Below, one piece after another: positions 178 to 34,287 of a DNA stretch of 38,916 nucleotides (the first letter of the stretch is position 1; each line of letters begins with the position of its first letter). Origin of the DNA: a virus; IMG/VR virus record IMGVR_UViG_3300045988_128868, positions 1-38,916 of that record; one strand, 5' to 3'. The translations under genes were made by a program, and so were the position numbers. Below the pieces are notes generated by a model, which was not told the origin of the DNA, did not search any database, and worked only from the letters and a program-made list of their open reading frames with translations.

Positions 178-1221
178 TTAAGATATCTTGGACATCTCTT
201 TTTGCAGGGTTTTATCCGACACCAAAGCGTAATATTTTAGCGTTGTGCTGTACTCTTCGTGACCGAGAATCATCTGGGTAGCCTCCGGGGTTACACCACT
301 TTCAACCATCATCGTTGCGCAGGTTTTACGGCAACTGTGAGGGGATAAGCGCCGTACTCCGATGGCATCAAGAGCACCATAATATTTTTTGCGCATGTAT
401 CCGGAGCTATAACCTGTACCGTCCTTTTTGCAAATCAATTTTTGACCACCGAGCTTTAATCTTGCCATGAGGTAGGGTTCTACGATTGGCAGTACCGGGA
501 CATGGCGGTTCTCTCCGGCTTCGGTCTTCAGACCGCCTATGAGCATTCTCTCTTTAATCAGATAGTCGTCTGGATTGAGCGCGAGCAATTCGGAGATGCG
601 GAAACCAGTGTAAATCAAAATTAATATGATATCTGCGTAGGGGACATTGTCCTCGGCGGCTTTCTTTATTTTCGCAACTTCTTCCTCTGTAAACGGGTGA
701 ACCTCGACTTTCTTTTTCTTTGGGAGTTTTAAAAATTTCGAGTAGTCCTTATAACAGATGTCGCGCTCCATCGCTATGTCGTACAGAACAGAAAACGATC
801 CTTTGATATATGACAATGAAGTTTTGCTTTGATTAAGATATGCATCAATACATTTCTGCATATCTTCCGTCCTTAATTCGCGGAACTTAATGCTTTTTAC
901 ATCTTCGGGGATCTTCTTCCATGCGGCGTTGTAGCAGTCCTTTGACTGCTTAGCCAGGTTCTTATATTCGGAACGAGAGAGCCACAAGGTGTGTAAGTCA
1001 TCGACAGTCATATTGATTTCAACTACCGGGTGTTCGAGGTAGTGAGCCAGAGCGGCTTTTGCCTCTTTGCTCGATGCGTAGTGCCCGAGGATTTCCTGCT
1101 TTTTAATCATCTTGCCTTGCTCGTCCAAGCTATAACTCGCCGGCAACGCGACGACCCAGGGACGCCGCTTGATATCCTTGCGTTTATATACGCTGCCTTC
1201 ACCGTTTTCACGCTTTGCCAT
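178..1221 (-). CDS. int: Tyrosine site-specific integrase
   Basis: 347 aa. Catalytic boxes are visible: TGFRISELLAL (Arg I), HSCRKTCAT (HxxR), LGHEEYSTTLKYY (His/Tyr). The gene is adjacent to attL. An AAGGAG RBS lies 11 nt upstream of the ATG. Confidence 0.93.
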   Translation of the reverse strand: MAKRENGEGSVYKRKDIKRRPWVVALPASYSLDEQGKMIKKQEILGHYASSKEAKAALAHYLEHPVVEINMTVDDLHTLWLSRSEYKNLAKQSKDCYNAAWKKIPEDVKSIKFRELRTEDMQKCIDAYLNQSKTSLSYIKGSFSVLYDIAMERDICYKDYSKFLKLPKKKKVEVHPFTEEEVAKIKKAAEDNVPYADIILILIYTGFRISELLALNPDDYLIKERMLIGGLKTEAGENRHVPVLPIVEPYLMARLKLGGQKLICKKDGTGYSSGYMRKKYYGALDAIGVRRLSPHSCRKTCATMMVESGVTPEATQMILGHEEYSTTLKYYALVSDKTLQKEMSKIS

Positions 1222-1501: not shown

Positions 1502-2167
1502 TTAGTTTTTAATTATCTCTCTCACGAGGAGATAAGGAACGCCCAGGATGCGATAGTGCTCGAGATCCGTGCCGGTTAACTCTTTGGGCGGATATGACGG
1601 ATTGAGGGGGCTAAGCCTAACCATGTCATCAAAGATATCGATTCTCTTAAGGGTCGCACATTCGCCGTCGTAAATAACGGCACCAACATCCCCGCTGCGC
1701 TCAATAAAGGTTTGCCGAAGAATGAGGACTTTATCGTCAGTGTGGTATGTCGGGTACATTGAATCACCGTGTACCTTTAGAACAAAAAAGTCGGATTTGC
1801 TTCGTCCCTTGAGAAAAGAGCGCGGGACATCTATGGTTTCGCCGCTCCAATCCTCGACTGCAATTTCTTCATATCCGGCAGCAATATTGCCTATTACCGG
1901 GAACGTAACAACATCTTCGGTCACATTCGGAGAAACGAGATTTAGCGGCTTCATGGGAACATCTGCACCCATTAACCACGGTATAGATACATTTAAAATT
2001 TTTGATATTTCTTCAGTTCTTCTTTGTTTTGGTGCGTAGATTCCTTTTTTATAATTGCTTATTGTAGCGTCAGCGACATTCAATGCTCTCGCAAGTTCCG
2101 CTGCGGTCATATTTCTACATTCTAAAGCTTCGTTTAATCTTTCTGCAAAGCTCGGCATATTAATCAC
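1502..2167 (-). CDS. cI: CI-like prophage repressor, XRE HTH plus S24 (LexA-type) autopeptidase
   Basis: 221 aa. HTH is MTAAELARALNVADATISNYKKG. Also visible are the Ala-Gly site (IAAGY), the Ser motif GDSMYP and the Lys motif TLKRI. It is divergent from the cro-like gene. Confidence 0.92.
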   Translation of the reverse strand: MINMPSFAERLNEALECRNMTAAELARALNVADATISNYKKGIYAPKQRRTEEISKILNVSIPWLMGADVPMKPLNLVSPNVTEDVVTFPVIGNIAAGYEEIAVEDWSGETIDVPRSFLKGRSKSDFFVLKVHGDSMYPTYHTDDKVLILRQTFIERSGDVGAVIYDGECATLKRIDIFDDMVRLSPLNPSYPPKELTGTDLEHYRILGVPYLLVREIIKN

Positions 2168-2965: not shown

Positions 2966-3676
2966 TTATTCAAAATATGTTTCGCTGTGGTAACCGGTGG
3001 CTTGGTCTTTGAAATCATTGCGCTGTGTGCAACTGCGAAAGCCAAAAGAAGAAAGAATGGTAATAATGCCAACCACAATGGTGATAAGCAATCCCAATTT
3101 TTGGGCGGAATCCCAGAATGCAGCCCTTTTCTTGTGGTGCTTGCTGTTTGGGCTGTCGTGGTTTGTGTCGCTATCATCACCACTACGTGATTCTTCTTGA
3201 GTCTTTGAAGCAGGTGCCTGTTGGATGCGGGAATCTTCGATGTTCTGCGCTGCGTTTGGTTCCGATAAAAACGGAATAGCAAGTGCTGTCATCTTCTTTA
3301 AAAAATCTTCTGCTTCTGCTTCTGTGAGACTTGAGGAAGAAATTGAAATGTAGCACTGATATGGAGTCTTATACAGAATGCTTTTGGTATCAAGATAAAG
3401 GTACGCGGACTCTTCGAGTGCGTTGGTACACAGGAGAGTTATAGACTTAAAAGGCGCACTGTCTGAAAAGTATTTCTTAAATTCCTCTAAAGTGTACCTT
3501 GTCTCATCGCTTATGTCACGACAGACAACTACGGTAGTTCGATAATTCTCCGATGCCGGAATCAGTGCGGTGTACTCATTTTCAATAGCCTTAAAAAGCT
3601 CAAGCAATGAAAATTTTTCGATTCTCCAGAAAGCAGATGCCGGGAGAGTAACATTCGTTGTTTTAGAAACTTGCAT
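2966..3676 (-). CDS. Tail-anchored membrane protein of unknown function
   Basis: 236 aa from MQVSKTT, with a GAGGTG RBS. It has a soluble N-domain of about 150 aa, a low-complexity acidic/Ser linker and a C-terminal TM (LGLLITIVVGIITILSSFGF). It has its own consensus-like promoter. Confidence 0.65.
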   Translation of the reverse strand: MQVSKTTNVTLPASAFWRIEKFSLLELFKAIENEYTALIPASENYRTTVVVCRDISDETRYTLEEFKKYFSDSAPFKSITLLCTNALEESAYLYLDTKSILYKTPYQCYISISSSSLTEAEAEDFLKKMTALAIPFLSEPNAAQNIEDSRIQQAPASKTQEESRSGDDSDTNHDSPNSKHHKKRAAFWDSAQKLGLLITIVVGIITILSSFGFRSCTQRNDFKDQATGYHSETYFE

Positions 3677-3702
3677 GACACACCTCAACATTTTTTGTTT
3701 TT

Positions 3703-3748: not shown

Positions 3749-3922
3749 ATGAACAACATGCTAATAGCCGTTATAACATCAAGCGCAGTGACAATATTGT
3801 GGTTGAAGTGGTTTTGGTCTGCTGCGCAAAAAAAAATCGGTAAGCAAAACGAAGAGTTGGCTCGTATGCTCACCGAATTTGTTGAAAGGTATATCGAGAA
3901 AGTCATTAAAGACAGACATTAA
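3749..3922 (+). CDS. Small membrane protein (57 aa, not in the ORF track)
   Basis: AAGGAG RBS 7 nt upstream of the ATG. Translation is MNNMLIAVITSSAVTILWLKWFWSAAQKKIGKQNEELARMLTEFVERYIEKVIKDRH. Its 3' end overlaps the convergent Abi-like gene by 17 nt. Confidence 0.45.
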   Translation: MNNMLIAVITSSAVTILWLKWFWSAAQKKIGKQNEELARMLTEFVERYIEKVIKDRH

Positions 3923-4676
3923 TGAATGCCTCTCCGAATGGATTCAAGCAGGCTCGACCTTTTTCAATATATACTTTTCGCATTACATTGCTGAAGCTGT
4001 TTTGGAAAATTTCCAAGTTTTCAAATTCATCATAGCTTGTTGTGAGACTTGAACCATCAAAGCTTATGTCAACAAGTCCCAGGCGATCAAGGGATGTAAT
4101 TGATGTACTTTGCCTGCCTATATCGCCAATTTCCGAATTTGCAATGAATACATTTTGATGAAGAACGATGTGTACATTTGAAAAACCAGAAACCTTTTCC
4201 ATTTCGGCAGGCGGATTCCCGCAGATATTGACGATTGGGAGATTATGTGAGTTCTTAAAGCATTTCAAAGTGTAGGCATCGTCAGGGGATAGTTGCTTTA
4301 TTATTTCGACAAATGCCGGATGAACCGTATCAGCAGTATCTTTTTGCATTGCTTTCGCCAACAGATTGGCGAATAAGTCTCGTAATGTCTCATTGTCGGT
4401 AGTATAGGCGATTGCTTGTAATGCAGGCACTGCAACATAGGCTTCAGGAGTCTTTATTTGCTCAGGGTCAACATCTTTAAGCTTCTCTTCCAATAGCTTT
4501 TTTGTTGCCTTTAATGAGTACTCTCCGTTCAGCACATATTTTTCAAGAGGTGTCAAAGCAACGCCTATAGCACGAGGTAATAAACTGACAATCTCTCCGA
4601 TTCTTTTCGCCGACGGATGGACAAGATCATCGTAAGCTTTTTCAATCGTGTTGCCTAATCCAATGTTTGTATCCAT
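3906..4676 (-). CDS. Abi-alpha / DUF4393-like protein (candidate abortive-infection gene)
   Basis: 256 aa. The N-terminal AYDDLVHPSAKRIGEIV and central YVAVPALQAIAYTTDNETLRDLFANLLAKAM blocks match my recollection of the Abi_alpha (DUF4393) family. Local GC is low and the gene is oriented opposite to the early operon. Confidence 0.6.
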   Translation of the reverse strand: MDTNIGLGNTIEKAYDDLVHPSAKRIGEIVSLLPRAIGVALTPLEKYVLNGEYSLKATKKLLEEKLKDVDPEQIKTPEAYVAVPALQAIAYTTDNETLRDLFANLLAKAMQKDTADTVHPAFVEIIKQLSPDDAYTLKCFKNSHNLPIVNICGNPPAEMEKVSGFSNVHIVLHQNVFIANSEIGDIGRQSTSITSLDRLGLVDISFDGSSLTTSYDEFENLEIFQNSFSNVMRKVYIEKGRACLNPFGEAFINVCL

Positions 4677-4789: not shown

Positions 4790-5497
4790 ATGAACGAGTT
4801 AATCAAAATCAACTATGAAAGCGACAGACCTACGGTCTTAGCGAGAGATCTGCACGAATTTCTTGAGGTCAAAACCGCCTACAAGGATTGGTTCCCGAGA
4901 ATGTGCGAATATGGCTTTGCGGCAGGTGGGGATTTCAACCTGCTCAAAAATGAGCGGGTTCAGATCGAAGGTTCGAGAACTGTATCAAGAACTGTAGACG
5001 ATGCACAACTTACCATCGATATGGCGAAAGAGATCTGTATGCTTCAGCGCAACGAGAAAGGCAAGCAGGCGAGACAGTATTTCTTGCAGCTTGAAAGAGA
5101 GTGGAACTCGCCCGAAGCGGTGATGTCGAGAGCCCTCAGAATGGCTGAGGAAAGGCTTGAAAGATTCAAAGCTATAAACGCCAACCTCTCAGTTCAGAAC
5201 GCTATTATGCAGCCGAAAGCGGAATATTTTGACGGTCTGTGCGACCGTGAGAGTCTTACCGGAATCAGAGAGACGGCGAAGCTTCTCGGGCTGAAACAGA
5301 ATGACTTTGTAAAGTGGCTTATAGACCACAAATACATTTACCGCGACAAGCGCGGCAGGCTGATGCCCTATGCGGAACATGTCGATTCAGGGCTGTTCAC
5401 TGTCAAAGAGACATATAACGATAAGACCGACTGGACAGGCGTTCAGATGCTTATCACCGTCAAGGGCAAAGAACGCTTCTTGAAAGCGCTCTCGTGA
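4790..5497 (+). CDS. ant: Phage antirepressor (AntA/ANT N-domain plus KilAC C-domain)
   Basis: 235 aa. The N-terminal TVLARDLHEFLEVKTAYKDWFPRM and QARQYFLQLE blocks, and the C-terminal GIRETAKLLGLKQNDFVKWL block, are typical of the family. Confidence 0.85.
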   Translation: MNELIKINYESDRPTVLARDLHEFLEVKTAYKDWFPRMCEYGFAAGGDFNLLKNERVQIEGSRTVSRTVDDAQLTIDMAKEICMLQRNEKGKQARQYFLQLEREWNSPEAVMSRALRMAEERLERFKAINANLSVQNAIMQPKAEYFDGLCDRESLTGIRETAKLLGLKQNDFVKWLIDHKYIYRDKRGRLMPYAEHVDSGLFTVKETYNDKTDWTGVQMLITVKGKERFLKALS

Positions 5498-18177: not shown

Positions 18178-19712
18178 TGATTAACAATATGGACTTGATA
18201 AGAGAAAAGCTCGCGTATCACCATACGGCTACGGACGATGAGATTATCAAAACCGTGCTTAAAAATGCGCGGGAAGACCCGGAGTATCTGGCGGCATGCG
18301 AGGGACTCCGATATTATCGCGGTATGCAGGACATTCTTCAGAAAGATTTTCGCGAGACGGTTGTCTACGAAGAAGACGAAAACAGCCCGGCGGGCATAAA
18401 GCGCGGCGGCGTTAAGATAATCAATGAAAACAATTCGAATCACCACAATGTGCATAATTTCCATGCGCTGATGGTCGATCAGAAAGTCGCGTACATTCTC
18501 GGCAAGCCGCTTTCCGTCTCCGTCGAGGGTGCAAATGATGGAGCGGGCAGTGTGGATGAAAGCCTGAAAGCTTTTGAGGACGCTGTCACCGCAGTGACCT
18601 CAGACGAGGCTTTTGTGGACATGCTCCCCGACCTCGCGACAAATGCGTCGAATTGTATCGTCGGATGGCTGCATGTCTATTACTCGGCAGCCGGCAAGCT
18701 TTGTTTTGTTGTTATCCCGACGACAGAATGTATTGCCTGCCGCGATATGAGTTATCAGCAGGTGATTACCGACTTTTTCCGCCACTATAAAATAACCGTC
18801 GTGCAAAACGGCACAGAGACGGAGCGGGAGCGGGTAGAGTGGTGGACTGCGACAGGGGTAAAACGCTATGTCGAAAACGATGCCGGAGAGTTTGTGCTCG
18901 AAAGCAACAGCCCGCACTGGTATAACGAGCAGATAATCAACGATGAGCGCGTCTCGGTTGAGGCGAAATCGTGGGGAAGAATCCCGTTTGTTCCGCTTTA
19001 TAACAACTCTGCGCATCAGACCGACCTTTCGCGAATCAAAGGTCTGCTTGACGCATATAACCTGATATCTTCTGCGTCGACGAATAATCAGATAGATCTC
19101 GTCGAGCTCTATTGGATGATACAGGGATACGGCGGCGAGACCGCAAAAGCGATACAGCAGAAGCTGCAGATAAACAAGGCGGTGTCAATAAGCGATCCGT
19201 CCGGCAAGATAAGCGCGGAGCAGGTCACACTTAATGTCACCGAGCGCCTCGCCTGGCTCGATATGCTGCGCCGGGACATATATCATATTGGACGCGGCAT
19301 TGATATGAACGATGAAAAGCTCGGCAGCGCGCCGTCAGGCGTCAGTCTGAAATTCCGCTACACCCTGCTTGACCTTAAGGCTGACCCGCTTGTCTCAAAG
19401 TTAAAGGTCATGCTGAAAGAGCTGTCATGGTTTATTACGCAGGACATTAACCTGAAGAACGGTACTGACTATGACTATACACTTATCAAATACGATGTCC
19501 ACAAGTCGATGATAGTCAATGACGCGGAGACGGTGGATATAATTCAGAAGTCGCAGGGGCTTGTGCCCGATAAGATGCTTTTAGCAAAGCACCCGTTTGT
19601 TGACGATGTCGCGCAGGCGTATGAGGAGCTGCAGAAGCAGCGCGAGGAAAACGCAAAGATGTTTATCGGCGACGATGACGACAAGGACGATTCCGAAAAG
19701 GATGATGAATAA
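18177..19712 (+). CDS. Portal protein (SPP1 gp6-like)
   Basis: 511 aa, positioned after terL with a TAATG overlap and an acidic C-terminus. Confidence 0.85.
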   Translation: MINNMDLIREKLAYHHTATDDEIIKTVLKNAREDPEYLAACEGLRYYRGMQDILQKDFRETVVYEEDENSPAGIKRGGVKIINENNSNHHNVHNFHALMVDQKVAYILGKPLSVSVEGANDGAGSVDESLKAFEDAVTAVTSDEAFVDMLPDLATNASNCIVGWLHVYYSAAGKLCFVVIPTTECIACRDMSYQQVITDFFRHYKITVVQNGTETERERVEWWTATGVKRYVENDAGEFVLESNSPHWYNEQIINDERVSVEAKSWGRIPFVPLYNNSAHQTDLSRIKGLLDAYNLISSASTNNQIDLVELYWMIQGYGGETAKAIQQKLQINKAVSISDPSGKISAEQVTLNVTERLAWLDMLRRDIYHIGRGIDMNDEKLGSAPSGVSLKFRYTLLDLKADPLVSKLKVMLKELSWFITQDINLKNGTDYDYTLIKYDVHKSMIVNDAETVDIIQKSQGLVPDKMLLAKHPFVDDVAQAYEELQKQREENAKMFIGDDDDKDDSEKDDE

Positions 19713-21451
19713 TGCGCTCTGATCTCTATTGGGAGGAGCGGGCACTGCAGCGCGAGGAATATGCCCGACGTGCCTCGACGCGGGCTATAAAGACAAAAAC
19801 GGTCAAGTTATACGCCAAGGCGCAGAAGGACCTCGACGCCCGCATAAATCGGATATTTTCGCGTTATGCGGCAAATGGTGAATTGACGCCGGAAGAAGCT
19901 CGTCGGATGTTGAACACCAAAGAAGCGGAAGCGGAATTGGAAGCACTGCGCAAAGAGCTCAATAACATAAAAGACCCGGTCATAAAGAGAAAAGCACTTG
20001 CTCGTCTCAATGCGCCGGCATACGCCGCGAGGATAAACCGCCTTGAGGCTTTGAAAGCCAATATCGAGACGGAAACGGCATTGCTTGCCGACCGGGAGAA
20101 GCGGGAGCTCAAGCGGCTGTTTGAAGACGTGAGCGGGGATACATACTATCGCAGTATATATGACACGCAGATCGGTACGGGATTAGGCTTTGAGTTCTCA
20201 GCCCTGCCGAAAGGTTCCGTAAACACCATAGTAAATGACCGATGGAAAGGTGCGAATTTTTCCGACCGCATCTGGCAGAACACATCCGCGCTTGCCAACA
20301 GCGCATACGGTATTGTGACGCGTGGAATTATGACGGGAGCGGGTCCGCAGGTAATGGCGCGCCAGCTCGCCGAAGCTATGCAGTCCGGAATGTATAACTC
20401 GATGCGGCTGATACGCACCGAGACTAACCGTGTGCACAACGCTGCTGAAAAAGCGGCATACGAAGAGGAAGGCATAACGGAATATAGATTCCTCGCCACT
20501 CTTGACGGGTGCACCTGCGATGTCTGCGGCGCTTTGGACGGCAAGACTTTTCCGGTCTCCGAAGCGAAGGAGGGCATAAACTATCCGCCGCTTCATCCGA
20601 ACGACCGCTGCACCACAACGGCAGTCATAGAGGGACAAAACCGAGCCGAACTCAAACGCAGGGCATTGGATCCCGAGACCGGGAAAACGGTGCTTATTCC
20701 GGCAGAAACGACATATGAAGAGTGGCTTGCGGATAATATAAATCCTCTTACCGGGAAGCTTAAATATTATCCGCCCAGGACTTTGACACAAGTGTCCTCC
20801 TACAATAGAGATCAGTTCGAACGGTATTCGGCAGTCTTAAAAGAAAACGTGCCGGATTCTCTTGATGAATTCTTAAAAATAAAGTATAATGATCCTGAGA
20901 AGTGGAAGACGCTCAAGAGGCAATACCGCTTGGTGAATCAATACAAGATAGATTCAGGCAATTTATCTACTGATGAAATCTTACGGTTTGATAAAAAGGT
21001 TATTTATGAAAAAAGACTCCAGTTCACGAGCAAATACAAAAGAAGCGGAAACATTGCCGGAGCATATATCGATGATGATTTTGACAATATGTACTATGCA
21101 CATAGTGCAGTATCTACAAAAGCAGATAGCAGTGGGTATAAAGGAACTGGAAAATTGGTCTTACTAAAAGAGGCACGACGTTTTAAATATATTGCTGTTC
21201 GCCGAGAGGATGGAACGATAAGAGAAGGAACCCACAATGATACTGAGGCAAAGCTTTTTGAGTTCTTTGCTGATTTGTATGAAACAACCCCCTTTAAAAA
21301 GATATGTATGCTTTCCGAACGTGGAATGTGTGATAGCTGTAAAGGGGTGATGCAGCAATTTAAAGAACTATACCCGGATGTTGAAGTGAATGTTATCTCA
21401 AACAAAAGGGTTGAAGGCAATGTTTGGAAAGAAAGGGTGAGAAAAAGATGA
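19712..21451 (+). CDS. MuF/SPP1 gp7-like minor head protein fused to a deaminase-like polymorphic-toxin C-terminal domain
   Basis: 579 aa. The MuF core is RTETNRVHNAA...ATLDGCTCDVCGALDGKTF...PPLHPNDRCT. The C-terminal ~150 aa carry HNDTEAK (H/DxE) and CDSC (CxxC) 28 aa apart. GC falls from about 57% to 30-43% after roughly nt 20790. Confidence 0.8.
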   Translation: MRSDLYWEERALQREEYARRASTRAIKTKTVKLYAKAQKDLDARINRIFSRYAANGELTPEEARRMLNTKEAEAELEALRKELNNIKDPVIKRKALARLNAPAYAARINRLEALKANIETETALLADREKRELKRLFEDVSGDTYYRSIYDTQIGTGLGFEFSALPKGSVNTIVNDRWKGANFSDRIWQNTSALANSAYGIVTRGIMTGAGPQVMARQLAEAMQSGMYNSMRLIRTETNRVHNAAEKAAYEEEGITEYRFLATLDGCTCDVCGALDGKTFPVSEAKEGINYPPLHPNDRCTTTAVIEGQNRAELKRRALDPETGKTVLIPAETTYEEWLADNINPLTGKLKYYPPRTLTQVSSYNRDQFERYSAVLKENVPDSLDEFLKIKYNDPEKWKTLKRQYRLVNQYKIDSGNLSTDEILRFDKKVIYEKRLQFTSKYKRSGNIAGAYIDDDFDNMYYAHSAVSTKADSSGYKGTGKLVLLKEARRFKYIAVRREDGTIREGTHNDTEAKLFEFFADLYETTPFKKICMLSERGMCDSCKGVMQQFKELYPDVEVNVISNKRVEGNVWKERVRKR

Positions 21452-26087: not shown

Positions 26088-26437
26088 TCTTCTCCTCGGC
26101 GACCGAGTGGGTCGCGGATCTCAAACCTCGCGCTTTTGCGGTCGGGATAACCCCGGACGAATTCTGGAGCATGTCGGCCGGAGAGGTTGAGGACCTTATA
26201 TCCGCAAGGCAAAAGGCAGAAAATGAGCGGCGCAAATGGCAGTTACAGCTGATATGGAATCTCGGGCAGCTTGATTCTTTCGCGTTTAACGACCCGAAAA
26301 AATATCCTACGCTTGAAAAGGCGTTCCCGTCAGCTTTCGGCATGCAGCAAACCGGGTGGATGGTAATCAAAGCTCGGATGTCCGCTTATGCCAAATCAAA
26401 AAACGCCGCAAGGCACAGGGCAGGTGAGAAAAAATGA
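25722..26437 (+). CDS. Tail assembly chaperone -1 frameshift product (gpGT-like)
   Basis: The -1 frame is open from before 25982 through 26437. The slip at T_TTT_TTT (26024-26030) joins ...KVSGFF to YTGTDSG... . It ends in an ATGA overlap with the TMP start. Confidence 0.65.
26024..26030 (+). promoter_or_regulatory. Programmed -1 ribosomal frameshift slippery heptamer T_TTT_TTT
   Basis: In the zero frame the codons read GGT TTT TTT ACA, which matches X_XXY_YYZ. Confidence 0.65.
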
Positions 26438-29202
26438 CAGTTGAAGAACTGCAAGTGCTGATTACAGCAAACACCAAGGACTTTAACGCCAAGATTGATA
26501 AGGCGAACAAGAGGCTGGGATCGCTCGAACAGCAGGCAACGCGCACGGGAGCGGGTGTCGGAAAGCTTTTTACAGGCTTAAAAACGGCCGCTGCCGTTGC
26601 GGCTATACAAAAAGTAGTGAGCGAAGTCAAGAAGCTGACGGACGCATATGCGGAAAACGAAGCCGCGCAGATGGGCTTGTCGAGCATATTGACCGCGCAG
26701 GGAAAAGACCTGAACGCCGCGAAAGCGTGGCTTAAATCGTATACCAAAGACGGCCTTATCCCGATGATGGACGCTTACACCGCGTATAAGAGACTCGCGG
26801 CGGCAGGGTATTCCGACGAGCAGACACAGTCCATACTGACCAACCTGAAAGACTCGGCGGCATTTAACCGTCAGGGCAGTATGACGATGGGCGAAGCCAT
26901 CAAGAGCGCAGCCGAAGGTATCAAAAACGAAAACAGCATTCTTGTCGACAACGCCGGCGTTACAAAAAACCTGTCCGTTATATGGGACGAATACGCGGCA
27001 TCGATAGGCAAGACTGCAGCAACGCTGACCGACGCAGAAAAGCGCATAGCCACGACACAAGGCATCATGCGGGAGACGGCATTCCAGACCGGGGATGCTG
27101 CGAAATATTCGAACACCCTCGCAGGAGCGCAGGCTGCTTTGAAAGCTCAGACAAAAATGTTGTCAAGTGCGCTCGGGTCGATGTTTGCGCCGGCTTTGCA
27201 GCAGTGTATTCCGCAGGTCACGGCGTTGCTTGAAAGATTGACCGCTCTCGCCGAAAAAACCGGGCAAGTTATGGCTATATTGTTCGGCACGTCGAGTGCA
27301 ACGAGCCGGACATCGTCAAACACCGCCAAGCTTGCCAATAGCACACAGCAAGTGTCCACAAACCTCGGCAGTGCGGCGAAAAAGGCGAAAGATTATAAAA
27401 ACGCTTTGCTCGGCATCGATGAAATCAATCGTCTCGGAACGCCGGATACCGGATCTGATAGCGGCAGCGGCGGCGGAAGCAGCACAACGGTATCAAGCGG
27501 GGGGAACAATTTTAAGAGCCCATTTTCCGACGCCGACAGCGTTATTGACCCGAAGCTTGCAGAGCGCGCAGAGGAGCTGAAGCAGAAGCTTAAAAAGGTG
27601 AAATCCACAGTCTCGGCGCTTGAGCCGGTGATAAAGGGAGTTGCAGCCGGCGCGACCGCCGCTTTCGGCGTAAAGGTGCTGCGCAAATGGTATTCCGGCG
27701 CAAAAGGTGTGTGGAATAGCTTTAAGGGGCTGAGAGTTGTCTCTACTTTTACCGAGAGTTTTTCTTGGATAAAGGAGACTGGAGGAAGCACAGCGCAGGC
27801 GTTAGGCTATGGATGGAAGAAAGCCGCGGGTGCCGCCAAAGACAGTTTGAAGCAGTTCCGAGCGGGTTTGTCGGCAACTCAAAAAGTCATGATAGGCGCG
27901 GCAGGATTCGCGGCATCGCTGGCGATGGCAAAATCTGCTTTTAAGGCATTCGGCGCGGGCGCAGAAGACGCCAAAGCCAAACTGGCGGTTATGGCAGTAG
28001 GACTTACTGCCGTTGCAGTGGCTATGTATGCGGCGTTGGGTCCGGCCGGACTGGTCGTCGCGGCAATTGGTGCAATCACGGGAGCTATCATAGGTTTTGA
28101 ACAAGGCGCAGATGAGCTTGCAGAAAAGACCTACCAATCCTCCGATGCCTATAAGGTGTTGTCAGAAAACATCGCATCCTCTGAGGCAATCATCCAAAGA
28201 ACAAAGGAAAATATGGATGGTCTTAATCAGAAGATAGAGGGATTGAACACCGTCAGTGCGGAGTACGGTGCAGTTAAAATGCTCACCGACGAGATATATC
28301 AGCTGAGCGAAAAGTCAAATAAGTCCGCCTATGAAATGGACTTGATGCGCGTCAAGGTCGACACTCTGAATGCTATGAATATCGACGGATTGCATTTGAG
28401 TATCGACGAGACCAAAGGCGTAGTTGTGGAGACTAAGGACTCAATTTACGGGGTCATAGAGGCTTTGAAGAAACAGGCCGAAATGGCTGCAATACAAGAC
28501 ATTCTGACTGAGTCATACAAAGCCTTTTATCAAGCAACAATTGACAACAAGACGGCGACTGACAATTACAAGGTTGCGTCAGATAGGCTTGCCGAGGCAC
28601 AAAATAAGTTAAACGAAAAGGCGGCAGAACTTGACAAGAAAAATCAGGGCGTATCAGGTGGCTTTCGTGATGTCGCGAACTGGATATCGCAAAAGCTTAG
28701 TCCGGAATATCGAGCTCTTAAAAAAGAAGTCGAACATGCCGAAGACGCTTTGGAACAGTCACGCAAGGCTATTAAGAACACGTCTGCTGCAATGGATGAC
28801 GCAAGCAAAAAGACGAAGTATTATTCGGATCAGCTCGTCAAGCTTAAAAATAACATCAACAATATAAACGGTGTAAGCTGCGATGTGACAGTAAAAACCC
28901 GATCTACCGGGGCACAGCAGTATGCATCCGGCGGATATCCTGATACCGGACAACTCTTTATTGCTCGAGAGAGCGGCCCCGAGATGGTTGGACAAATCGG
29001 AGGCAGGACGGCAGTTGCCAACAACAGCCAAATTGTGGACGGTGTTTCTTCGGGTGTTGAGCGCGGTGTTGAAAGAGCTATGGAACGAAGCAATGGCGGA
29101 ACCGTAACGATTGTCGTTATGAACGAGCGCGGTGATATTGTAAACGAGCTTAGAAATGTCAACATGCGTGCCGGTAAAGTAATCATTCCGATAAACGAAT
29201 AA
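26434..29202 (+). CDS. Tail tape measure protein
   Basis: 922 aa, with a TMP core (GYSDEQTQSILTNLKDSAAF...MGEAIKSAAEGI), Gly/Ala-rich TM-like segments and long coiled coils. Confidence 0.92.
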   Translation: MTVEELQVLITANTKDFNAKIDKANKRLGSLEQQATRTGAGVGKLFTGLKTAAAVAAIQKVVSEVKKLTDAYAENEAAQMGLSSILTAQGKDLNAAKAWLKSYTKDGLIPMMDAYTAYKRLAAAGYSDEQTQSILTNLKDSAAFNRQGSMTMGEAIKSAAEGIKNENSILVDNAGVTKNLSVIWDEYAASIGKTAATLTDAEKRIATTQGIMRETAFQTGDAAKYSNTLAGAQAALKAQTKMLSSALGSMFAPALQQCIPQVTALLERLTALAEKTGQVMAILFGTSSATSRTSSNTAKLANSTQQVSTNLGSAAKKAKDYKNALLGIDEINRLGTPDTGSDSGSGGGSSTTVSSGGNNFKSPFSDADSVIDPKLAERAEELKQKLKKVKSTVSALEPVIKGVAAGATAAFGVKVLRKWYSGAKGVWNSFKGLRVVSTFTESFSWIKETGGSTAQALGYGWKKAAGAAKDSLKQFRAGLSATQKVMIGAAGFAASLAMAKSAFKAFGAGAEDAKAKLAVMAVGLTAVAVAMYAALGPAGLVVAAIGAITGAIIGFEQGADELAEKTYQSSDAYKVLSENIASSEAIIQRTKENMDGLNQKIEGLNTVSAEYGAVKMLTDEIYQLSEKSNKSAYEMDLMRVKVDTLNAMNIDGLHLSIDETKGVVVETKDSIYGVIEALKKQAEMAAIQDILTESYKAFYQATIDNKTATDNYKVASDRLAEAQNKLNEKAAELDKKNQGVSGGFRDVANWISQKLSPEYRALKKEVEHAEDALEQSRKAIKNTSAAMDDASKKTKYYSDQLVKLKNNINNINGVSCDVTVKTRSTGAQQYASGGYPDTGQLFIARESGPEMVGQIGGRTAVANNSQIVDGVSSGVERGVERAMERSNGGTVTIVVMNERGDIVNELRNVNMRAGKVIIPINE

Positions 29203-29228
29203 AAGCCCTCTCAATCGAGAGGGCTTTT
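29201..29228. terminator. Bidirectional terminator between the TMP gene and the antisense lipoprotein gene
   Basis: A 12-bp stem pairs AAAAGCCCTCTC with GAGAGGGCTTTT around a 4-nt loop. It is flanked by an A run and a T run. Confidence 0.8.
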
Positions 29229-29244
29229 CCTTTGTAATATTGCG

Positions 29245-29850
29245 TCAGTCCACTTTTTCACCAAGTGCTCTGGAAATCTGCAAATATTGTCCGTCTTGGA
29301 CAGTGATATATGCATTGTTGCTGAAGTTATCGTTAGCAACGATATTATCGCCGTAATTGTACGAACTCGACAGCACGGCGTAATAACCGTCGTTTCCCGC
29401 CTCAGTGGCAACGAGCTTGTACTCTCCGGCGGGAATATCCTTTCCAATCTTATAAACCCCTTCGAGCACGGCGGAACTGTTGAAGTGCATGTCCGGAGCT
29501 TTTTCCGAGGAACACATTTCTGCCCGTGTAATTTCTATGTATTCGCCGTCCTTGACAGTGGCATAAACCCAAGTGTCAAAGTTTTCGTTAAAAATAATCG
29601 AATCTCCGGAACTGTCGGACGACACACAGAAATATCCTGAATAATCTTTTTCTGTGGCGATTATCCAGTATTCTCCGGCGGGAATGTCTTTTCCAACCTT
29701 GTACATTCCCTCGCCGTAATGGTCATTCGGCAAATCTACTTTGCTGATATTATCTGGAGTAGTGGGGGAGTTGATGGTTGTAGAATTGCCGCATCCACAG
29801 AGCCCAATCAGCATAATACCTGCGATAAGTAAAGCAATAAATTTTTTCAT
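29245..29850 (-). CDS. Lipoprotein with two tandem ~68-aa repeat domains (moron)
   Basis: 201 aa with signal/lipobox MKKFIALLIAGIMLIGLCG|C. The repeats are YKVGKDIPAGEYWIIATE... and YKIGKDIPAGEYKLVATE... . It is the only minus-strand gene in the structural module and has its own promoter. Confidence 0.85.
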   Translation of the reverse strand: MKKFIALLIAGIMLIGLCGCGNSTTINSPTTPDNISKVDLPNDHYGEGMYKVGKDIPAGEYWIIATEKDYSGYFCVSSDSSGDSIIFNENFDTWVYATVKDGEYIEITRAEMCSSEKAPDMHFNSSAVLEGVYKIGKDIPAGEYKLVATEAGNDGYYAVLSSSYNYGDNIVANDNFSNNAYITVQDGQYLQISRALGEKVD

Positions 29851-29873
29851 CAGAATTTCTCCCTTTTCTTTTT

Positions 29874-29902
29874 AATCTATCATATTTCATTTTTTATGTC
29901 AA
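29874..29902 (-). promoter_or_regulatory. Promoter of the lipoprotein gene (TTGACA-17-TGA-TAGATT)
   Basis: The reverse complement of 29897-29902 is TTGACA and that of 29874-29879 is TAGATT, with an extended -10 TG. A GGGAG RBS follows. Confidence 0.55.
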
Positions 29903-29920
29903 GAAAGAAGGTGAACAGCA

Positions 29921-30316
29921 GTGGCAACCGCTTTTAATCCCGGCGACAATCCGATAGCTACCGTGGACGGCGTAACTATGCCGGTATATCCTGACTCGGA
30001 GGACGGATATAAATGGGAGCTTGAGGACGCTTCTGCCAGCGACGCAGGGCGTACCGAAGATGTCGTCATGCACAAAAAGCGCATAGGACAGACCGACGCG
30101 GTAACGCTTAAATTTTCCGGGTTGTCCATAGCGAACGCGAGCAAGATTCTGAAAATGTTCAATCCGGAGTATATAACGGTCAAGTACTTAAATATGCTCG
30201 AGGGCGGATATGTAACAAAAGAGTTTTATGTCGGCAACAGAAGTGCGCCGCTGTACAACAGCAGTCTGAATGTTGTTGACAATGTGACCTTTAAAATCGT
30301 GGCGCGAAAGGGGTGA
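29921..30316 (+). CDS. Small tail protein (possible distal-tail-protein role)
   Basis: 131 aa with a GTG start after GAAGGTGA. It lies between the TMP and Tal-like genes. Function is assigned by position only. Confidence 0.5.
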   Translation: MATAFNPGDNPIATVDGVTMPVYPDSEDGYKWELEDASASDAGRTEDVVMHKKRIGQTDAVTLKFSGLSIANASKILKMFNPEYITVKYLNMLEGGYVTKEFYVGNRSAPLYNSSLNVVDNVTFKIVARKG

Positions 30317-30320
30317 TGTT

Positions 30321-32516
30321 ATGTATCCAATAACTTCTGCCGGGCTTGCTGCTCTGCGAGAGGATGTGGTGCAGTCCGTCAATATCCTCTGTACGCCTAC
30401 AAAAGGCACGGCATTTAATATCACCGACAAGGACATCATCGGCGCGGTAACGGTGGACTGGTCGAGCGTCACGGGCAGTAAGCTTGATTTGGGCTCGGCG
30501 TGTATGTCAGAGCTGAGTTTTACTCTTGAGAATACCGACGGCGCGTTTGACGACAAGGTGTTCGAAGGTGCGCAGCTGTATGTCACTACAAGCTTTCCGA
30601 CGGGCTCGACAACGGAGACCGTGCCTATCGGCTATTACACGGTGGACAGCCCCCCGCGCAAGCTCAGAAGCATCAAAATAACGGCTTATGACCGCATGGC
30701 GAAGTTTAACCGAGCCTATGATACTGAGCTTGCCTATCCTGCAACGCTGTATCAGATAGTCGCCGATGCCTGCACAAAGTGCGGGGTGTCGCAGAAGCTC
30801 CCAACGAACACGCTGCATCGGGGTGTATCGATACTAAAACGCCCGGAGGCGGACAACCTGACCTATCGTCAGGTGCTTGTCTGGGCTGCGGAGCTTATGG
30901 GCGTGAGCTTGTATATCGACTATGACGGCAAGCTGACAGGCGGGTGGTATGCGACAAACGCCAAACACGCGGTTATAAAAGCTTCAGATCGTTTTACTTC
31001 CGGCAATACCAATTTTGCCGAAAATAACATCGTGTTTTCCGGTGTGCGCATCGTCGGAAACGACGAGAACAAGACAGAATACCTCGCGGGCACAAAGGAC
31101 TATGCCTTTAACATCGAGGGCAATCTTCTTGTGCAGAGCGATATGAATCTCAGCACACTGGCGACGGAACTCAAAACCGCACGGTGCAGTCTTACATACA
31201 CGCCTATGTCCTGCACTACACACTCTTTCCCGCACCTCAGACCGCTCGATGTGATGAATTTTGAGACGGCTCAGGGGACGAAAAAGGTCGTGCTGACAAA
31301 TGTCAAGTGGCAGTCACAAAACCGCTGCACGAAGCTCGAGGGCAAGGGCGAAACGGCAACGCAGTCAGGATATGCCACGATGGGTGCTTTTACACCAAAG
31401 CAGCAGGCGGTACTCGAGCAAACCCGCGCCCAACAGGCAGCGCAAATCAACGACTACGAACAGGCGACACTCGCGCTGAACGAGACCATTGCGAATAGTA
31501 TGGGCTTATATGTCACGCGGAAAGCAGACAGCAGCGGCGCGGTAATTACTTATTACCACGACAAGCCTACGCTTGAGGGAAGCAACACCATCTACTGCCG
31601 CAACGCCGGCGGTTATGCCTGGACTAATAACGGCTGGAACAACGGATCACCGAACTGGGAGTACGGTGTTTCAAAAGACGGTGACGCGGTTATCCGAAGC
31701 ATTGCCGCAAACAAGATTTCCGCGAGTTATATTACGACGGATATCCTTTCGTCGCCGACCGGGAAGTTTTCGTTTAACTTGGACACGGGTCATATCGAAG
31801 CCTCCGACATCAACATCACCGGCGGAGATATCAACCTCGACGGTGGAATGTTGTCTGTTAAAAGTTCTGACGGATATCGAGTTGATTTATCGTCAGGTTC
31901 TATCGAACTTTATCAGGGCGCGGGCAGCAATTCGGACGCTGAAAAAAAGTACATGGGCGTCGGAAACACATTGATATATAAATCCGTTGATGATGTCCTT
32001 TTGTACGCTACTTTTGCATCAGCCGATTATTCGCTTGGCGGTCATTCAAACGGAGGCTTTAGGTTCGGAAAATCGCTTAATAATGGTCGCGACTTTGACA
32101 CCACTGCAAAGCCGTATTCTGAGATGGAAAAGGCATGGACTTATGATTACATGCGCGTAGAGTATGATGCGACATATATTCGCCGATTGCTGTCTGTCAA
32201 TGAAATGGGATATCCGACCGACACAGGAGAATATCTCGCATATCGGGCTACAGGATTTAATGCGCAGCTGGTCAAATTTACTACAGACTTCGGCGCGTCG
32301 TTAGTGGCAGGAGTTCCTGCCTTTTCCGTGCGTGTGAGAGACAACACAACGCAGAGAAACGATTATGTTCGTGCTGATGTTTTCGCGGCGCAGAGCGACC
32401 GGGCGGAAGTCAGATTAAAAGACCCGAGCGGCAACGTGTACAGACTGACATTTACTCAGAGCGGCATAACATTTTGGTCAAATACAACCGGTTCGAAAAA
32501 ACTCGCTTTTGTATAA
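30321..32516 (+). CDS. Tail-associated (Tal-like) baseplate/hub protein
   Basis: 731 aa. The N-terminal region resembles phage minor structural/tail endopeptidase-type N-domains. Position is syntenic with Tal. Confidence 0.6.
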   Translation: MYPITSAGLAALREDVVQSVNILCTPTKGTAFNITDKDIIGAVTVDWSSVTGSKLDLGSACMSELSFTLENTDGAFDDKVFEGAQLYVTTSFPTGSTTETVPIGYYTVDSPPRKLRSIKITAYDRMAKFNRAYDTELAYPATLYQIVADACTKCGVSQKLPTNTLHRGVSILKRPEADNLTYRQVLVWAAELMGVSLYIDYDGKLTGGWYATNAKHAVIKASDRFTSGNTNFAENNIVFSGVRIVGNDENKTEYLAGTKDYAFNIEGNLLVQSDMNLSTLATELKTARCSLTYTPMSCTTHSFPHLRPLDVMNFETAQGTKKVVLTNVKWQSQNRCTKLEGKGETATQSGYATMGAFTPKQQAVLEQTRAQQAAQINDYEQATLALNETIANSMGLYVTRKADSSGAVITYYHDKPTLEGSNTIYCRNAGGYAWTNNGWNNGSPNWEYGVSKDGDAVIRSIAANKISASYITTDILSSPTGKFSFNLDTGHIEASDINITGGDINLDGGMLSVKSSDGYRVDLSSGSIELYQGAGSNSDAEKKYMGVGNTLIYKSVDDVLLYATFASADYSLGGHSNGGFRFGKSLNNGRDFDTTAKPYSEMEKAWTYDYMRVEYDATYIRRLLSVNEMGYPTDTGEYLAYRATGFNAQLVKFTTDFGASLVAGVPAFSVRVRDNTTQRNDYVRADVFAAQSDRAEVRLKDPSGNVYRLTFTQSGITFWSNTTGSKKLAFV

Positions 32517-34273: not shown

Positions 34274-34287
34274 GGAGGTGCTTGCAT

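What the first reader, a model, noticed from the sequence alone, without database searches (positions are those of the whole stretch)
29201..29902. Antisense lipoprotein moron with two tandem repeat domains placed directly after the tape measure gene
This is the only minus-strand gene in the 22-kb structural operon. It has its own promoter (TTGACA-17-TGnTAGATT), an RBS and a shared bidirectional terminator.

It encodes a lipobox protein (LIGLCG|C) with two ~68-aa repeats: (M/V)YK(V/I)GKDIPAGEY...ATE...GY(F/Y)...S(S/Y)...(I/V)...N(E/D)NF...Y(A/I)TV(K/Q)DG(E/Q)Y(I/L)(E/Q)I(T/S)RA.

The overall design (surface-anchored lipoprotein, two repeat domains, expression from the prophage) parallels Ltp of Streptococcus phage TP-J34, which blocks TMP-dependent DNA injection. 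I see no sequence similarity to Ltp. Its placement beside the TMP gene is suggestive of a superinfection-exclusion function against relatives of this phage.
Basis: partly seen in the sequence, partly recalled or inferred. Interest (0 to 1): 0.65.

Follow-up and report, generated by a model that had tools for sequence, protein, structure and literature searches.

The report
Prophage surface lipoprotein, candidate phage-exclusion factor
A temperate phage of an uncultured gut Clostridia bacterium carries, backwards between two tail genes, a self-contained gene for a membrane-anchored surface protein from a very large uncharacterised family that turns up again and again in the "lysogeny" parts of prophages, and it most likely protects the lysogen against incoming phages, although that function is untested.

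Summary
A 201-aa ORF (29245..29850, minus strand) has its own extended -10 promoter, an RBS and a bidirectional terminator. It is the only antisense gene in the packaging-to-lysis block. It encodes a lipobox signal peptide, a disordered linker and two homologous all-beta domains.

It is not an orphan. Both domains belong to the Rv1352/Rv1906c domain family (NCBIfam NF053833, Pfam PF27111), which has about 5,700 clusters at 50% identity and no known function or solved structure.

Eight of nine sampled distant relatives sit in prophages or mobile elements, mostly between repressor and integrase or at the prophage end. The ninth lies in a chromosomal array of paralogues.

In this phage lineage the slot between the tape measure gene and the next tail gene is a cargo site. 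A near-identical phage keeps the promoter and the first codons of the signal peptide but carries an unrelated lipoprotein.

There is no homology to Ltp, but the design is the same. The mycobacteriophage exclusion protein NormanBulbieJr gp45 also shares that design, is linked to the tape measure protein, and matches the same NCBIfam model below its cut-off.

Superinfection exclusion is the best-supported reading (about 0.45). Adjacency to the tape measure gene is probably incidental.

The parts
29874..29902 (-). Sigma-70-type promoter of the moron. -35 TTGACA is at 29902..29897, the spacer is 17 nt, the extended -10 TG is at 29882..29881, and -10 TAGATT is at 29879..29874.
   Evidence: (10 of 12 matches, TG present). 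The promoter is conserved in L029. The same design with a different sequence occurs in L031.
29859..29865 (-). Ribosome-binding site AAGGGAG, 8 nt upstream of the ATG.
   Evidence: Read from the sequence.
29245..29850 (-). CDS of the 201-aa lipoprotein, stop codon included.
   Evidence: dN/dS is 0.08-0.13. NF053833 scores 57.6 bits against a cut-off of 25. phrog_23726 matches at E 2.8e-40.
29791..29850 (-). Signal peptide (aa 1-19: MKK, then a 14-residue hydrophobic core) and the lipobox L-C-G|C, with Cys20 as the lipidated residue.
   Evidence: Pattern match by hand against the PROSITE PS51257 rule. AF2 models an N-terminal helix here. A lipobox is conserved in 39 of the 120 best homologues.
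29713..29790 (-). Low-complexity spacer rich in S, T, P, N and D (aa 21-46), predicted disordered.
   Evidence: pLDDT is 60-71 over this stretch. The composition is given.
29509..29712 (-). Rv1352-type domain 1 (aa 47-114), a 7-stranded all-beta domain that contains the Cys75/Cys113 pair.
   Evidence: (pLDDT 93-98).
29248..29466 (-). Rv1352-type domain 2 (aa 129-201), a 7-stranded all-beta domain.
   Evidence: single-domain model, pLDDT 90.8. In one search the best stretch, residues 130-189, matches model positions 4-63 of 76.
29201..29228 (.). Bidirectional intrinsic terminator (12-bp stem, 4-nt loop) shared by the tape measure gene on the + strand and the moron on the - strand. The U-tract is better on the - strand.
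   Evidence: (-20.5 and -22.3 kcal/mol, z about -5.5).
26434..29202 (+). Tape measure protein gene (922 aa), the left border of the cargo slot.
   Evidence: phrog_1535 and phrog_1686. Homology with L029 ends exactly at 29202.
29921..30316 (+). DUF6711 / phrog_1194 protein (131 aa) at the position where siphovirus genomes usually encode the distal tail protein (positional inference). It is the right border of the cargo slot.
   Evidence: It is 98-100% identical in all close relatives.

Best explanation
This is a prophage moron, an independently transcribed accessory gene set antisense into the late operon.

Mechanism (inferred): in the lysogen, while the late operon is silent, the moron's own promoter would drive synthesis of a lipoprotein. 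The lipoprotein would be exported, lipidated at Cys20 and tethered to the outer face of the cytoplasmic membrane. A flexible spacer of about 26 residues would hold a strongly acidic head made of two Rv1352/Rv1906c-type beta domains in the wall zone.

Most likely function: superinfection exclusion acting at the envelope after adsorption. The head would bind a component of an incoming siphovirus tail tip. The tape measure protein is the precedent-based candidate. Binding would stop formation of the DNA channel.

Shown here: the gene, its signals, the purifying selection, the domain family, the predicted fold, and the recurrent prophage lysogeny-type locations of the family.

Inferred: expression in the lysogen, lipidation, surface location, the exclusion activity and its target.
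For: - Self-contained unit: promoter, RBS and terminator. The design is conserved with different sequences in the L031 homologue.
- Antisense to an otherwise unidirectional packaging-to-lysis block, so late transcription would oppose it.
- Purifying selection, dN/dS 0.08-0.13.
- Surface display is a family-wide feature with interchangeable anchors. Among the 120 best hits, 39 have a lipobox, 13 a Zn-ribbon plus TM segment and 50 a signal peptide or TM segment. Some relatives also carry precomputed choline-binding or PG_binding_1 hits. 101 of the 120 have the two-domain head.
- Location of relatives: 8 of 9 sampled distant homologues are in prophages or mobile elements. Four lie between a repressor or ImmA gene and the integrase/recombinase. 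One lies in an immunity region, one next to an S24 repressor, one at the prophage end after the lysis genes and one at the edge of a primase-bearing element.
- Among 118 neighbouring ORFs of 33 non-redundant IMG/VR relatives, the commonest Pfam hits are Cro/CI-type HTH (12), integrases or resolvase (6), lysis genes, antirepressors, HicB and Abi_2.
- The slot is a cargo site. L029 and L030 keep the promoter and about 10 codons of the signal peptide but carry another lipoprotein.
- Precedents:
  - Ltp is a lipid anchor, spacer and repeat domain, is expressed from the prophage and targets the TMP (PMC3952083).
  - The HK97 gp15 moron lies next to the TMP gene and blocks DNA entry (PMC3594210).
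  - NBJ gp45 has a signal peptide, a 24-aa disordered tail and an acidic beta-barrel. It sits in an operon with the repressor and acts after adsorption. It has a TMP escape mutant and a two-hybrid interaction with a TMP fragment (bioRxiv 10.64898/2025.12.12.693979).
- gp45 and all 13 of its relatives tested have NF053833 as their best or only consistent NCBIfam match (E 7.4e-4, model positions 1-74 of 76).
- The mature protein has net charge -16 and pI 4.2, like the acidic heads of Ltp and gp45.
Against: - There are no expression, localisation or phenotype data.
- No PADLOC model matches.
- The family is almost absent from cultured phages in INPHARED, so nothing has been tested in it.
- The family also occurs outside phages: a chromosomal array of six tandem paralogues, and the name-giving secreted M. 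tuberculosis proteins, which appear in the literature retrieved only as antigens. The domain is therefore not intrinsically anti-phage.
- The gp45 link is below the curated cut-off (19.8 against 25 bits).
- Direct profile comparisons between the clostridial domain and the gp45 family find nothing.
- gp45 relatives carry no precomputed PF27111 hit.
- Acidic charge is common in secreted proteins.
Confidence: 0.45

Rival explanations
1. Lysogenic-conversion factor unrelated to phage defence. The two beta domains would bind a cell-wall polymer, a host or dietary glycan, or another envelope component. The effect would be on adhesion, nutrient capture or envelope properties of the lysogen, as with lambda Bor or Lom.
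For: - The family has chromosomal paralogue arrays.
- The family's name-giving members are M. tuberculosis proteins Rv1352/Rv1906c, which the literature retrieved treats only as antigens.
- Domain partners are cell-wall-binding modules: choline-binding repeats, PG_binding_1 and Cu_amine_oxidN1.
- There is a sub-threshold Pfam match to the CBM-like X25 pullulanase domain (20.5 against 27 bits). Precomputed PF22058 hits occur on several relatives.
- The best PDB fold neighbours, none significant, include collagen-binding domains, lectins, CBMs and glycosidase sugar-binding domains.
Against: - No fold match reaches E < 1e-3 or TM > 0.5, so the CBM link is not confirmed.
- The strong bias to repressor-integrase positions in prophages fits any lysogen-expressed cargo and does not favour this reading.
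- The closest functional precedent with the same design is an exclusion protein.
Confidence: 0.3
2. It acts for the phage during lytic growth or at release. For example, it might mask the receptor or envelope of the infected or lysed cell so that progeny are not wasted on debris (as described for T5 Llp), or it might modulate lysis.
For: - It is a surface lipoprotein, as is T5 Llp (PMC9586334 appears in the list; I did not read it).
- Some relatives lie directly after the lysis module.
Against: - The gene is convergent with the late operon, so late transcription would interfere with it.
- Most relatives are in immunity or integration modules.
- No plus-strand promoter was found in 28800..30400, so late transcription has to read through this region.
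Confidence: 0.12
3. It specifically blocks the tape measure protein of this phage's own relatives, and that is why it sits next to the TMP gene.
For: - Adjacency to the TMP gene in all 28 relatives.
- The HK97 gp15 precedent, also adjacent to the TMP gene.
- The TMP has a variable patch at about aa 650-850 among otherwise near-identical phages, while its last 70 aa are conserved.
Against: - The same slot carries unrelated cargo.
- Family members elsewhere are not next to TMP genes.
- The TMP variable patch is separated from the cargo by a conserved stretch. It is driven mainly by L029 and L030, so a link with the cargo is not shown.
Confidence: 0.15

Closest known systems
Mycobacteriophage NormanBulbieJr gp45, a secreted superinfection-exclusion protein of Cluster F phages (bioRxiv 10.64898/2025.12.12.693979)
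   Same: - Prophage-encoded, with an N-terminal export signal, a disordered tail of about 24-26 residues and a small acidic beta domain.
- Its family sits in the lysogeny module between integrase and repressor, as many relatives of the window protein do.
- Its best NCBIfam match is the same Rv1352_Rv1906c model.
   Different: - It has one domain, not two.
- The preprint describes an N-terminal signal peptide and export to the periplasm; it does not describe gp45 as a lipoprotein.
- Its match to NF053833 is below the cut-off.
- No direct profile-profile similarity to the clostridial domain.
- The host is Actinobacteria.
- gp45's function is demonstrated experimentally; the window protein's is not.
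Ltp of Streptococcus thermophilus phage TP-J34 (Ltp-type exclusion lipoproteins)
   Same: It has a lipid anchor, a Ser-rich spacer and a tandem repeat head. It is transcribed from the prophage. Its negatively charged head acts on the TMP of the incoming phage (PMC3952083).
   Different: - No sequence similarity.
- The window protein's domains are all-beta.
- No Ltp structure appears among the listed fold matches.
- ltp lies in the lysogeny module, whereas this gene lies between the TMP gene and the next tail gene.
HK97 gp15 moron
   Same: It is an independent transcription unit inserted in the tail operon right beside the tape measure gene. It is expressed from the prophage and blocks DNA entry in a manner that depends on the phage tail (PMC3594210).
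   Different: - gp15 is a small YebO-like inner-membrane protein of a Gram-negative host.
- It lies upstream of the TMP gene.
- It is not a lipoprotein and has no beta domains.
Rv1352 / Rv1906c of Mycobacterium tuberculosis (NCBIfam NF053833, Pfam PF27111)
   Same: Same domain family by HMM score: 57.6 bits against a cut-off of 25, with two stretches. The proteins are exported.
   Different: - They are chromosomal proteins.
- In the literature retrieved they are mentioned only as antigens or in gene lists.
- No function is known that could be transferred.
Lambda Bor, a moron lipoprotein
   Same: From my own knowledge, and cited as reference 24 in PMC3594210: it is a prophage-expressed lipoprotein.
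   Different: It is an outer-membrane lipoprotein of a Gram-negative host with a serum-resistance phenotype. No homology.

Membership tests
Rv1352/Rv1906c domain family (NCBIfam NF053833; Pfam PF27111) | HMM score above the curated cut-off | tested here: met
   NF053833 gives E 1.2e-15 and 57.6 bits against a cut-off of 25, with 2 stretches. The database precomputes PF27111 on the window protein and on almost all of its listed homologues. PF27111 is not in the local Pfam copy, so I did not rescore it.
Rv1352/Rv1906c domain family (NCBIfam NF053833; Pfam PF27111) | Extracytoplasmic location (export signal) | tested here: met
   The lipobox signal peptide was read from the sequence. 102 of the 120 best homologues have a lipobox, a signal peptide or TM segment, or a Zn-ribbon plus TM segment. 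A Cys pair at equivalent positions occurs in a subset. No SignalP or LipoP run was possible.
Ltp-type superinfection-exclusion lipoproteins (TP-J34 Ltp) | Sequence or fold homology of the repeat domain to Ltp | tested here: not met
   There is no Ltp-family hit in Pfam at E <= 10. The model is all-beta. No Ltp structure is among the 50 matches listed for each PDB fold search.
Ltp-type superinfection-exclusion lipoproteins (TP-J34 Ltp) | Lipid anchor, spacer and tandem repeat head | tested here: met
   The Ltp design is taken from PMC3952083.
Ltp-type superinfection-exclusion lipoproteins (TP-J34 Ltp) | Blocks DNA injection by interacting with the TMP | not testable with these tools
   This needs infection assays, escape mutants or interaction assays.
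Moron (independent transcription unit in a phage late operon) | Own promoter and terminator; present or absent, or swapped, between otherwise collinear relatives; compositional difference from the flanks | tested here: met
   - Promoter and terminator.
- Cargo swapped in L029 and L030, with breakpoints at 29202 and 29822.
- dS of the gene is 0.34-0.43 against 0.05-0.17 for the flanking genes in L024-L026, which indicates allele exchange.
- GC is about 0.40-0.46 against about 0.50 for the flanks, a mild difference.
NBJ gp45-type secreted exclusion proteins | Detectable homology to gp45 | tested here: inconclusive
   gp45 and 13 relatives all match NF053833, but below the cut-off (best E 7.4e-4, 19.8 bits). 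Direct hhalign and hmmsearch between the two families are negative.
X25 / CBM-like carbohydrate-binding modules (PF22058) | Pfam score above the gathering threshold, or a fold match | tested here: not met
   The score is 20.5 bits against a cut-off of 27. No pullulanase or X25 structure is among the listed fold matches. The PDB profile search was empty.
Known anti-phage defence systems (PADLOC-DB 2.0) | Match to any model | tested here: not met
   0 families at E <= 10.

The most novel reading that the evidence does not exclude
The Rv1352/Rv1906c-type two-domain surface proteins would be a very large, so far unrecognised class of prophage-encoded superinfection-exclusion proteins. The class has about 5,700 clusters at 50% identity and is concentrated in lysogeny modules of gut Clostridia prophages. 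It would be shared between Firmicutes and Actinobacteria, with mycobacteriophage NBJ gp45 as its first characterised, remote member. These proteins would act after adsorption on the tape measure or tail-tip complex. The anchor would be interchangeable (lipid, TM segment, Zn-ribbon plus TM segment, choline-binding) and the acidic beta head would be the active part.
Probability: 0.25. Interest if true: 0.75.

Novelty: new variant of a known kind. Interest (0 to 1): 0.55.

Why it matters
Exclusion proteins that act at the envelope are hard to recognise from sequence. In Gram-positive bacteria only a few families have been characterised, such as Ltp and the lactococcal Sie proteins (my own knowledge).

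If this family is an exclusion family, a single domain signature would flag a candidate exclusion gene in thousands of prophages of uncultured gut Clostridia. That would help explain phage host-range barriers in the gut.

It would also give a function to the long-orphan M. tuberculosis Rv1352/Rv1906c domain.

The conserved promoter and signal-peptide cassette with swappable mature parts shows how such cargo is exchanged between phages.

Tried and rejected
- **Ltp homology:** rejected. There is no Pfam hit and the fold is all-beta.
- **Solved-structure relatives:** none were found by sequence. None were found by fold for the full model (best E 2.9e-3, TM 0.22) or for the single domain (best E 0.17, TM at most 0.48).
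- **X25/CBM link:** it stayed below threshold and is not backed by fold search.
- **PADLOC:** no match.
- **Cultured phages (INPHARED):**
  - No hit with the window protein at E <= 1e-5.
  - With relative P0017 at E <= 1, one unannotated faecal phage fragment matched at E 1e-6 and two Listeria phage records matched at a non-significant E 0.09.
- **Genome-contig scan:** wasted.
- **Host identification:** the flanking MFS transporter resolved the host only to 'Clostridia bacterium' MAGs.
- **Direct homology to NBJ gp45:** hhalign and hmmsearch were negative.
- **Positive selection on the lipoprotein:** rejected; dN/dS is about 0.1.
- **Co-transfer of the TMP 3' end with the cargo:** rejected. 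The last 70 TMP residues are conserved between the variable patch and the slot.
- **Structured RNA in the region:** only sub-threshold terminator-like matches.
That drops Met1, so positions printed are the protein position minus 1.


Full report
**1. The observation**

The window is a temperate siphovirus-type prophage.
- The lysogeny module holds a tyrosine integrase (178..1221, -), an S24/HTH CI-type repressor (1502..2167, -), an Abi_alpha gene (3906..4676, -) and an antirepressor (4790..5497, +).
- A unidirectional plus-strand block follows, from packaging to lysis.
- A 201-aa ORF lies on the minus strand at 29245..29850. It sits between the tape measure gene (26434..29202; phrog_1535 and phrog_1686) and a DUF6711/phrog_1194 gene (29921..30316) at the position where siphoviruses usually encode the distal tail protein.

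- Promoter: TTGACA, 17 nt, TAGATT with an upstream TG (29902..29874).
- RBS: GGGAG, 8 nt before the ATG.
- Terminator: a 12-bp stem-loop at 29201..29228, scored on both strands. It folds at -20.5 and -22.3 kcal/mol, and 0 of 200 shuffles fold as well.

A promoter-like match by itself is not above chance in this region (2 found, 2.6 expected). Comparison makes it credible:
- The 61%-identical homologue in L031 has a different promoter of the same design (TTTACA-17-TAAATT with TG) and its own terminator.
- L029 conserves the window's promoter.

Independent gene calls on two contigs with the identical protein show it as the only gene on the opposite strand from portal to lysis.

The two halves of the protein are clearly homologous: local score 191 against 26.8 +/- 5.1 for shuffles.

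dN/dS against four allelic variants is 0.08-0.13. It is therefore a real gene under purifying selection.

**2. What the protein is**

Protein numbering is used here.
- Residues 1-19 are a signal peptide: MKK, then a 14-residue hydrophobic core.
- The lipobox is L-C-G|C20. Only Cys20 fits the PROSITE-type lipobox rule.
- Residues 21-46 form a spacer rich in S, T, P, N and D, modelled with low confidence.
- Residues about 47-114 and 129-201 are two seven-stranded all-beta domains, modelled with pLDDT 93-98. The whole model has pLDDT 89.8 and pTM 0.79. The single-domain model has pLDDT 90.8.
- The mature part is strongly acidic, with net charge -16 and pI 4.2.

The protein is not an orphan.
- NCBIfam NF053833 (Rv1352/Rv1906c domain) matches with 57.6 bits against a cut-off of 25, in two stretches.
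- The big protein database precomputes Pfam PF27111 'Rv1352' on it and on nearly all of its 909 relatives found at E <= 1e-3.
- PHROGs has it as phrog_23726, function unknown (E 2.8e-40).
- A profile search of 1.84 billion representatives finds 5,699 clusters at E <= 1e-3 and 2,617 at E <= 1e-10.

No solved structure is related.
- By sequence: none.
- By fold, full model: best E 2.9e-3 and TM 0.22.
- By fold, single domain: best E 0.17 and TM at most 0.48.

Against predicted viral structures, the confident matches (probability 1.0) include small actinophage proteins annotated as lipoproteins:
- Mycobacterium phage Aggie, rmsd 2.3 A over 79 columns.
- Gordonia phage VanLee.

Uncharacterised proteins of Mycobacterium phage Aziz and Rhodococcus phage ChewyVIII match at the same probability.

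The literature retrieved on Rv1352 and Rv1906c treats them only as antigens or list entries.

**3. Family architecture**

Among the 120 best homologues:

| N-terminal anchor | Count |
|---|---|
| Lipobox | 39 |
| Zn-ribbon plus TM segment | 13 |
| Signal peptide or TM anchor | 50 |
| No recognisable anchor | 15 |
| Apparent fragments | 3 |

- 101 of the 120 have exactly two domain motifs.
- Some relatives carry precomputed choline-binding, PG_binding_1 or Cu-amine-oxidase-N hits alongside PF27111.
- The constant part is therefore the two-domain head, and the variable part is the device that holds it at the cell surface.
- A Cys pair occurs at equivalent positions. It is present in domain 1 of the window protein (C75, C113) and in domain 2 of 16 of 58 relatives. 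This fits an extracytoplasmic protein.

**4. Where the family sits**

In this phage lineage, all 28 relatives in IMG/VR and in the assemblies that carry the gene have it in the same slot.

The slot is a cargo site.
- L029 and L030 are collinear with the window. Their DUF6711 protein is 100% identical and their TMP gene is about 93% identical at the DNA level.
- Homology stops exactly at the TMP stop codon (29202). It resumes at 29822, about 10 codons into the signal peptide.
- The promoter, the RBS and the start of the signal peptide are shared.
- The mature protein is an unrelated 274-aa lipoprotein with its own terminator.
- In L031 the slot holds the 61% homologue plus an acetyltransferase-type gene (phrog_1758) with a small upstream partner.
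- In L024-L026 the lipoprotein's dS (0.34-0.43) is far above that of its flanks (0.05-0.17). This shows allele exchange rather than positive selection.

I sampled nine distant homologues on long contigs.

| Homologue | Location |
|---|---|
| P0048 | Between HTH repressor / ImmA and a serine recombinase |
| P0119 | Between HTH repressor and a tyrosine integrase |
| P0085 | Between repressor and a serine recombinase |
| P0020 | Between ImmA and an integrase |
| P0042 | Inside an immunity region |
| P0018 | Beside an S24 repressor |
| P0098 | Prophage end, after the lysis genes |
| P0055 | Edge of a primase-bearing element |
| P0075 | Non-phage chromosomal array of six tandem paralogues |

In IMG/VR, 177 stretches encode relatives. 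I took 33 non-redundant distant ones and scanned their 118 neighbouring ORFs:
- Cro/CI-type HTH: 12
- Phage integrase: 5, plus 1 resolvase
- Amidases, GH25, M23 peptidase and holins: about 9
- Antirepressors: 4
- HicB: 2, and Abi_2: 1
- Tail proteins: about 4

The family is therefore recurrent cargo of the two classical lysogenic-conversion positions. The TMP-adjacent position is a peculiarity of this lineage.

**5. Mechanism**

What is shown supports a protein made from its own promoter, exported and held at the outer face of the membrane. It is carried by prophages where lysogen-expressed genes normally lie.

Three precedents fit this design.
- **Ltp.** It has a lipid anchor, a Ser-rich spacer and a repeat head. 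It is transcribed in the prophage, and its acidic head acts on the TMP (PMC3952083).
- **HK97 gp15.** It is a moron beside the TMP gene that blocks DNA entry in a tail-dependent way (PMC3594210).
- **Mycobacteriophage NormanBulbieJr gp45.** This comes from a 2026 preprint (10.64898/2025.12.12.693979).
  - It has a signal peptide, a 24-residue disordered tail and an acidic beta-barrel.
[quoted passage not shown] It sits between the integrase and the repressor.
  - Protection requires export.
  - It acts after adsorption.
  - An escape mutation maps to the TMP.
  - It interacts with a TMP fragment in a two-hybrid assay.

I fetched gp45 and scanned it. Its best NCBIfam hit is the same Rv1352_Rv1906c model, covering positions 1-74 of 76. 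The score is below the cut-off (E 7.4e-4, 19.8 against 25 bits). All 14 members of its family match that model and no other consistently.

Against this, several tests were negative:
- hhalign between the clostridial profile and gp45 or its family.
- A filter-free hmmsearch of the clostridial domain model against the gp45 family.
- gp45 relatives have no precomputed PF27111 hit.

Homology to gp45 is therefore possible but unproven. The functional analogy is strong.

I put superinfection exclusion at the envelope at about 0.45. The TMP-specific version scores about 0.15. A non-defence conversion function, such as wall or glycan binding or adhesion, scores about 0.3. A lytic-cycle role scores about 0.1.

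**6. Novelty and score**

The gene is a member of a named but functionally blank domain family. As a candidate exclusion protein it has Ltp's design with an unrelated fold.

The searches I ran turned up no paper linking this family to prophage lysogeny modules. One search did surface the gp45 preprint, but the passages I read do not mention Rv1352.

The case is worth follow-up because one signature would mark thousands of gut prophage genes. Nothing here demonstrates the function.

Interest is 0.55.

Noticed in passing
window 19712..21451 (+): The 579-aa minor head protein combines a Phage_Mu_F domain (E 1.8e-16) with a C-terminal Toxin-deaminase domain of the BURPS668_1122 family (E 3.5e-35). 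It looks like a MuF-type polymorphic toxin packaged with the virion.
   Followed up: no
window 3906..4676 (-): An Abi_alpha (abortive infection alpha) gene (E 2.8e-48) sits in the lysogeny module next to the repressor. The prophage therefore carries a second candidate defence gene. The neighbouring 241-aa ORF at 2966..3691 (-) has no Pfam or PHROG match.
   Followed up: no
window 34282..36294 (+): A 670-aa protein in the tail-fibre region carries a tyrosine-phosphatase-like domain (Y_phosphatase3, E 1.5e-23). That is unusual for a tail-region protein.
   Followed up: no
window 26434..29202 (+), TMP residues about 650-850: Among 27 near-identical TMP alleles, amino-acid variation is concentrated in residues about 650-850 (12-18 variable sites per 50 residues in aa 701-850, 9 in 651-700, against 2-8 in the blocks before aa 651). 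The last 70 residues are almost invariant. L029 and L030 are only 50% identical in residues 751-800.
   Followed up: partly
L029 4387..5211 (+), also L030: An unrelated 274-aa lipoprotein occupies the same slot behind the same promoter and the first ~10 signal-peptide codons. It has no significant Pfam or PHROG match.
   Followed up: partly
L031 7104..7888 (+): In a more distant relative of the phage, the slot also holds a 203-aa acetyltransferase-type protein (phrog_1758, E 6e-47). A small 57-aa upstream gene (phrog_3291) overlaps it. This is possibly a GNAT toxin-antitoxin pair.
   Followed up: partly
L060 2471..8840 (+): A chromosomal, non-phage array of seven tandem genes, six of which have PF27111 (Rv1352) hits. 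It lies between a GyrI-like gene and an Fe-ADH / pyruvate-formate-lyase cluster.
   Followed up: no
window 28800..30400: No plus-strand promoter-like site was found after the bidirectional terminator. Expression of the roughly 8.5 kb of tail and lysis genes downstream therefore requires read-through of 29201..29228 on the plus strand, where the U-tract is poorer (TTTTCCTTTG).
   Followed up: partly
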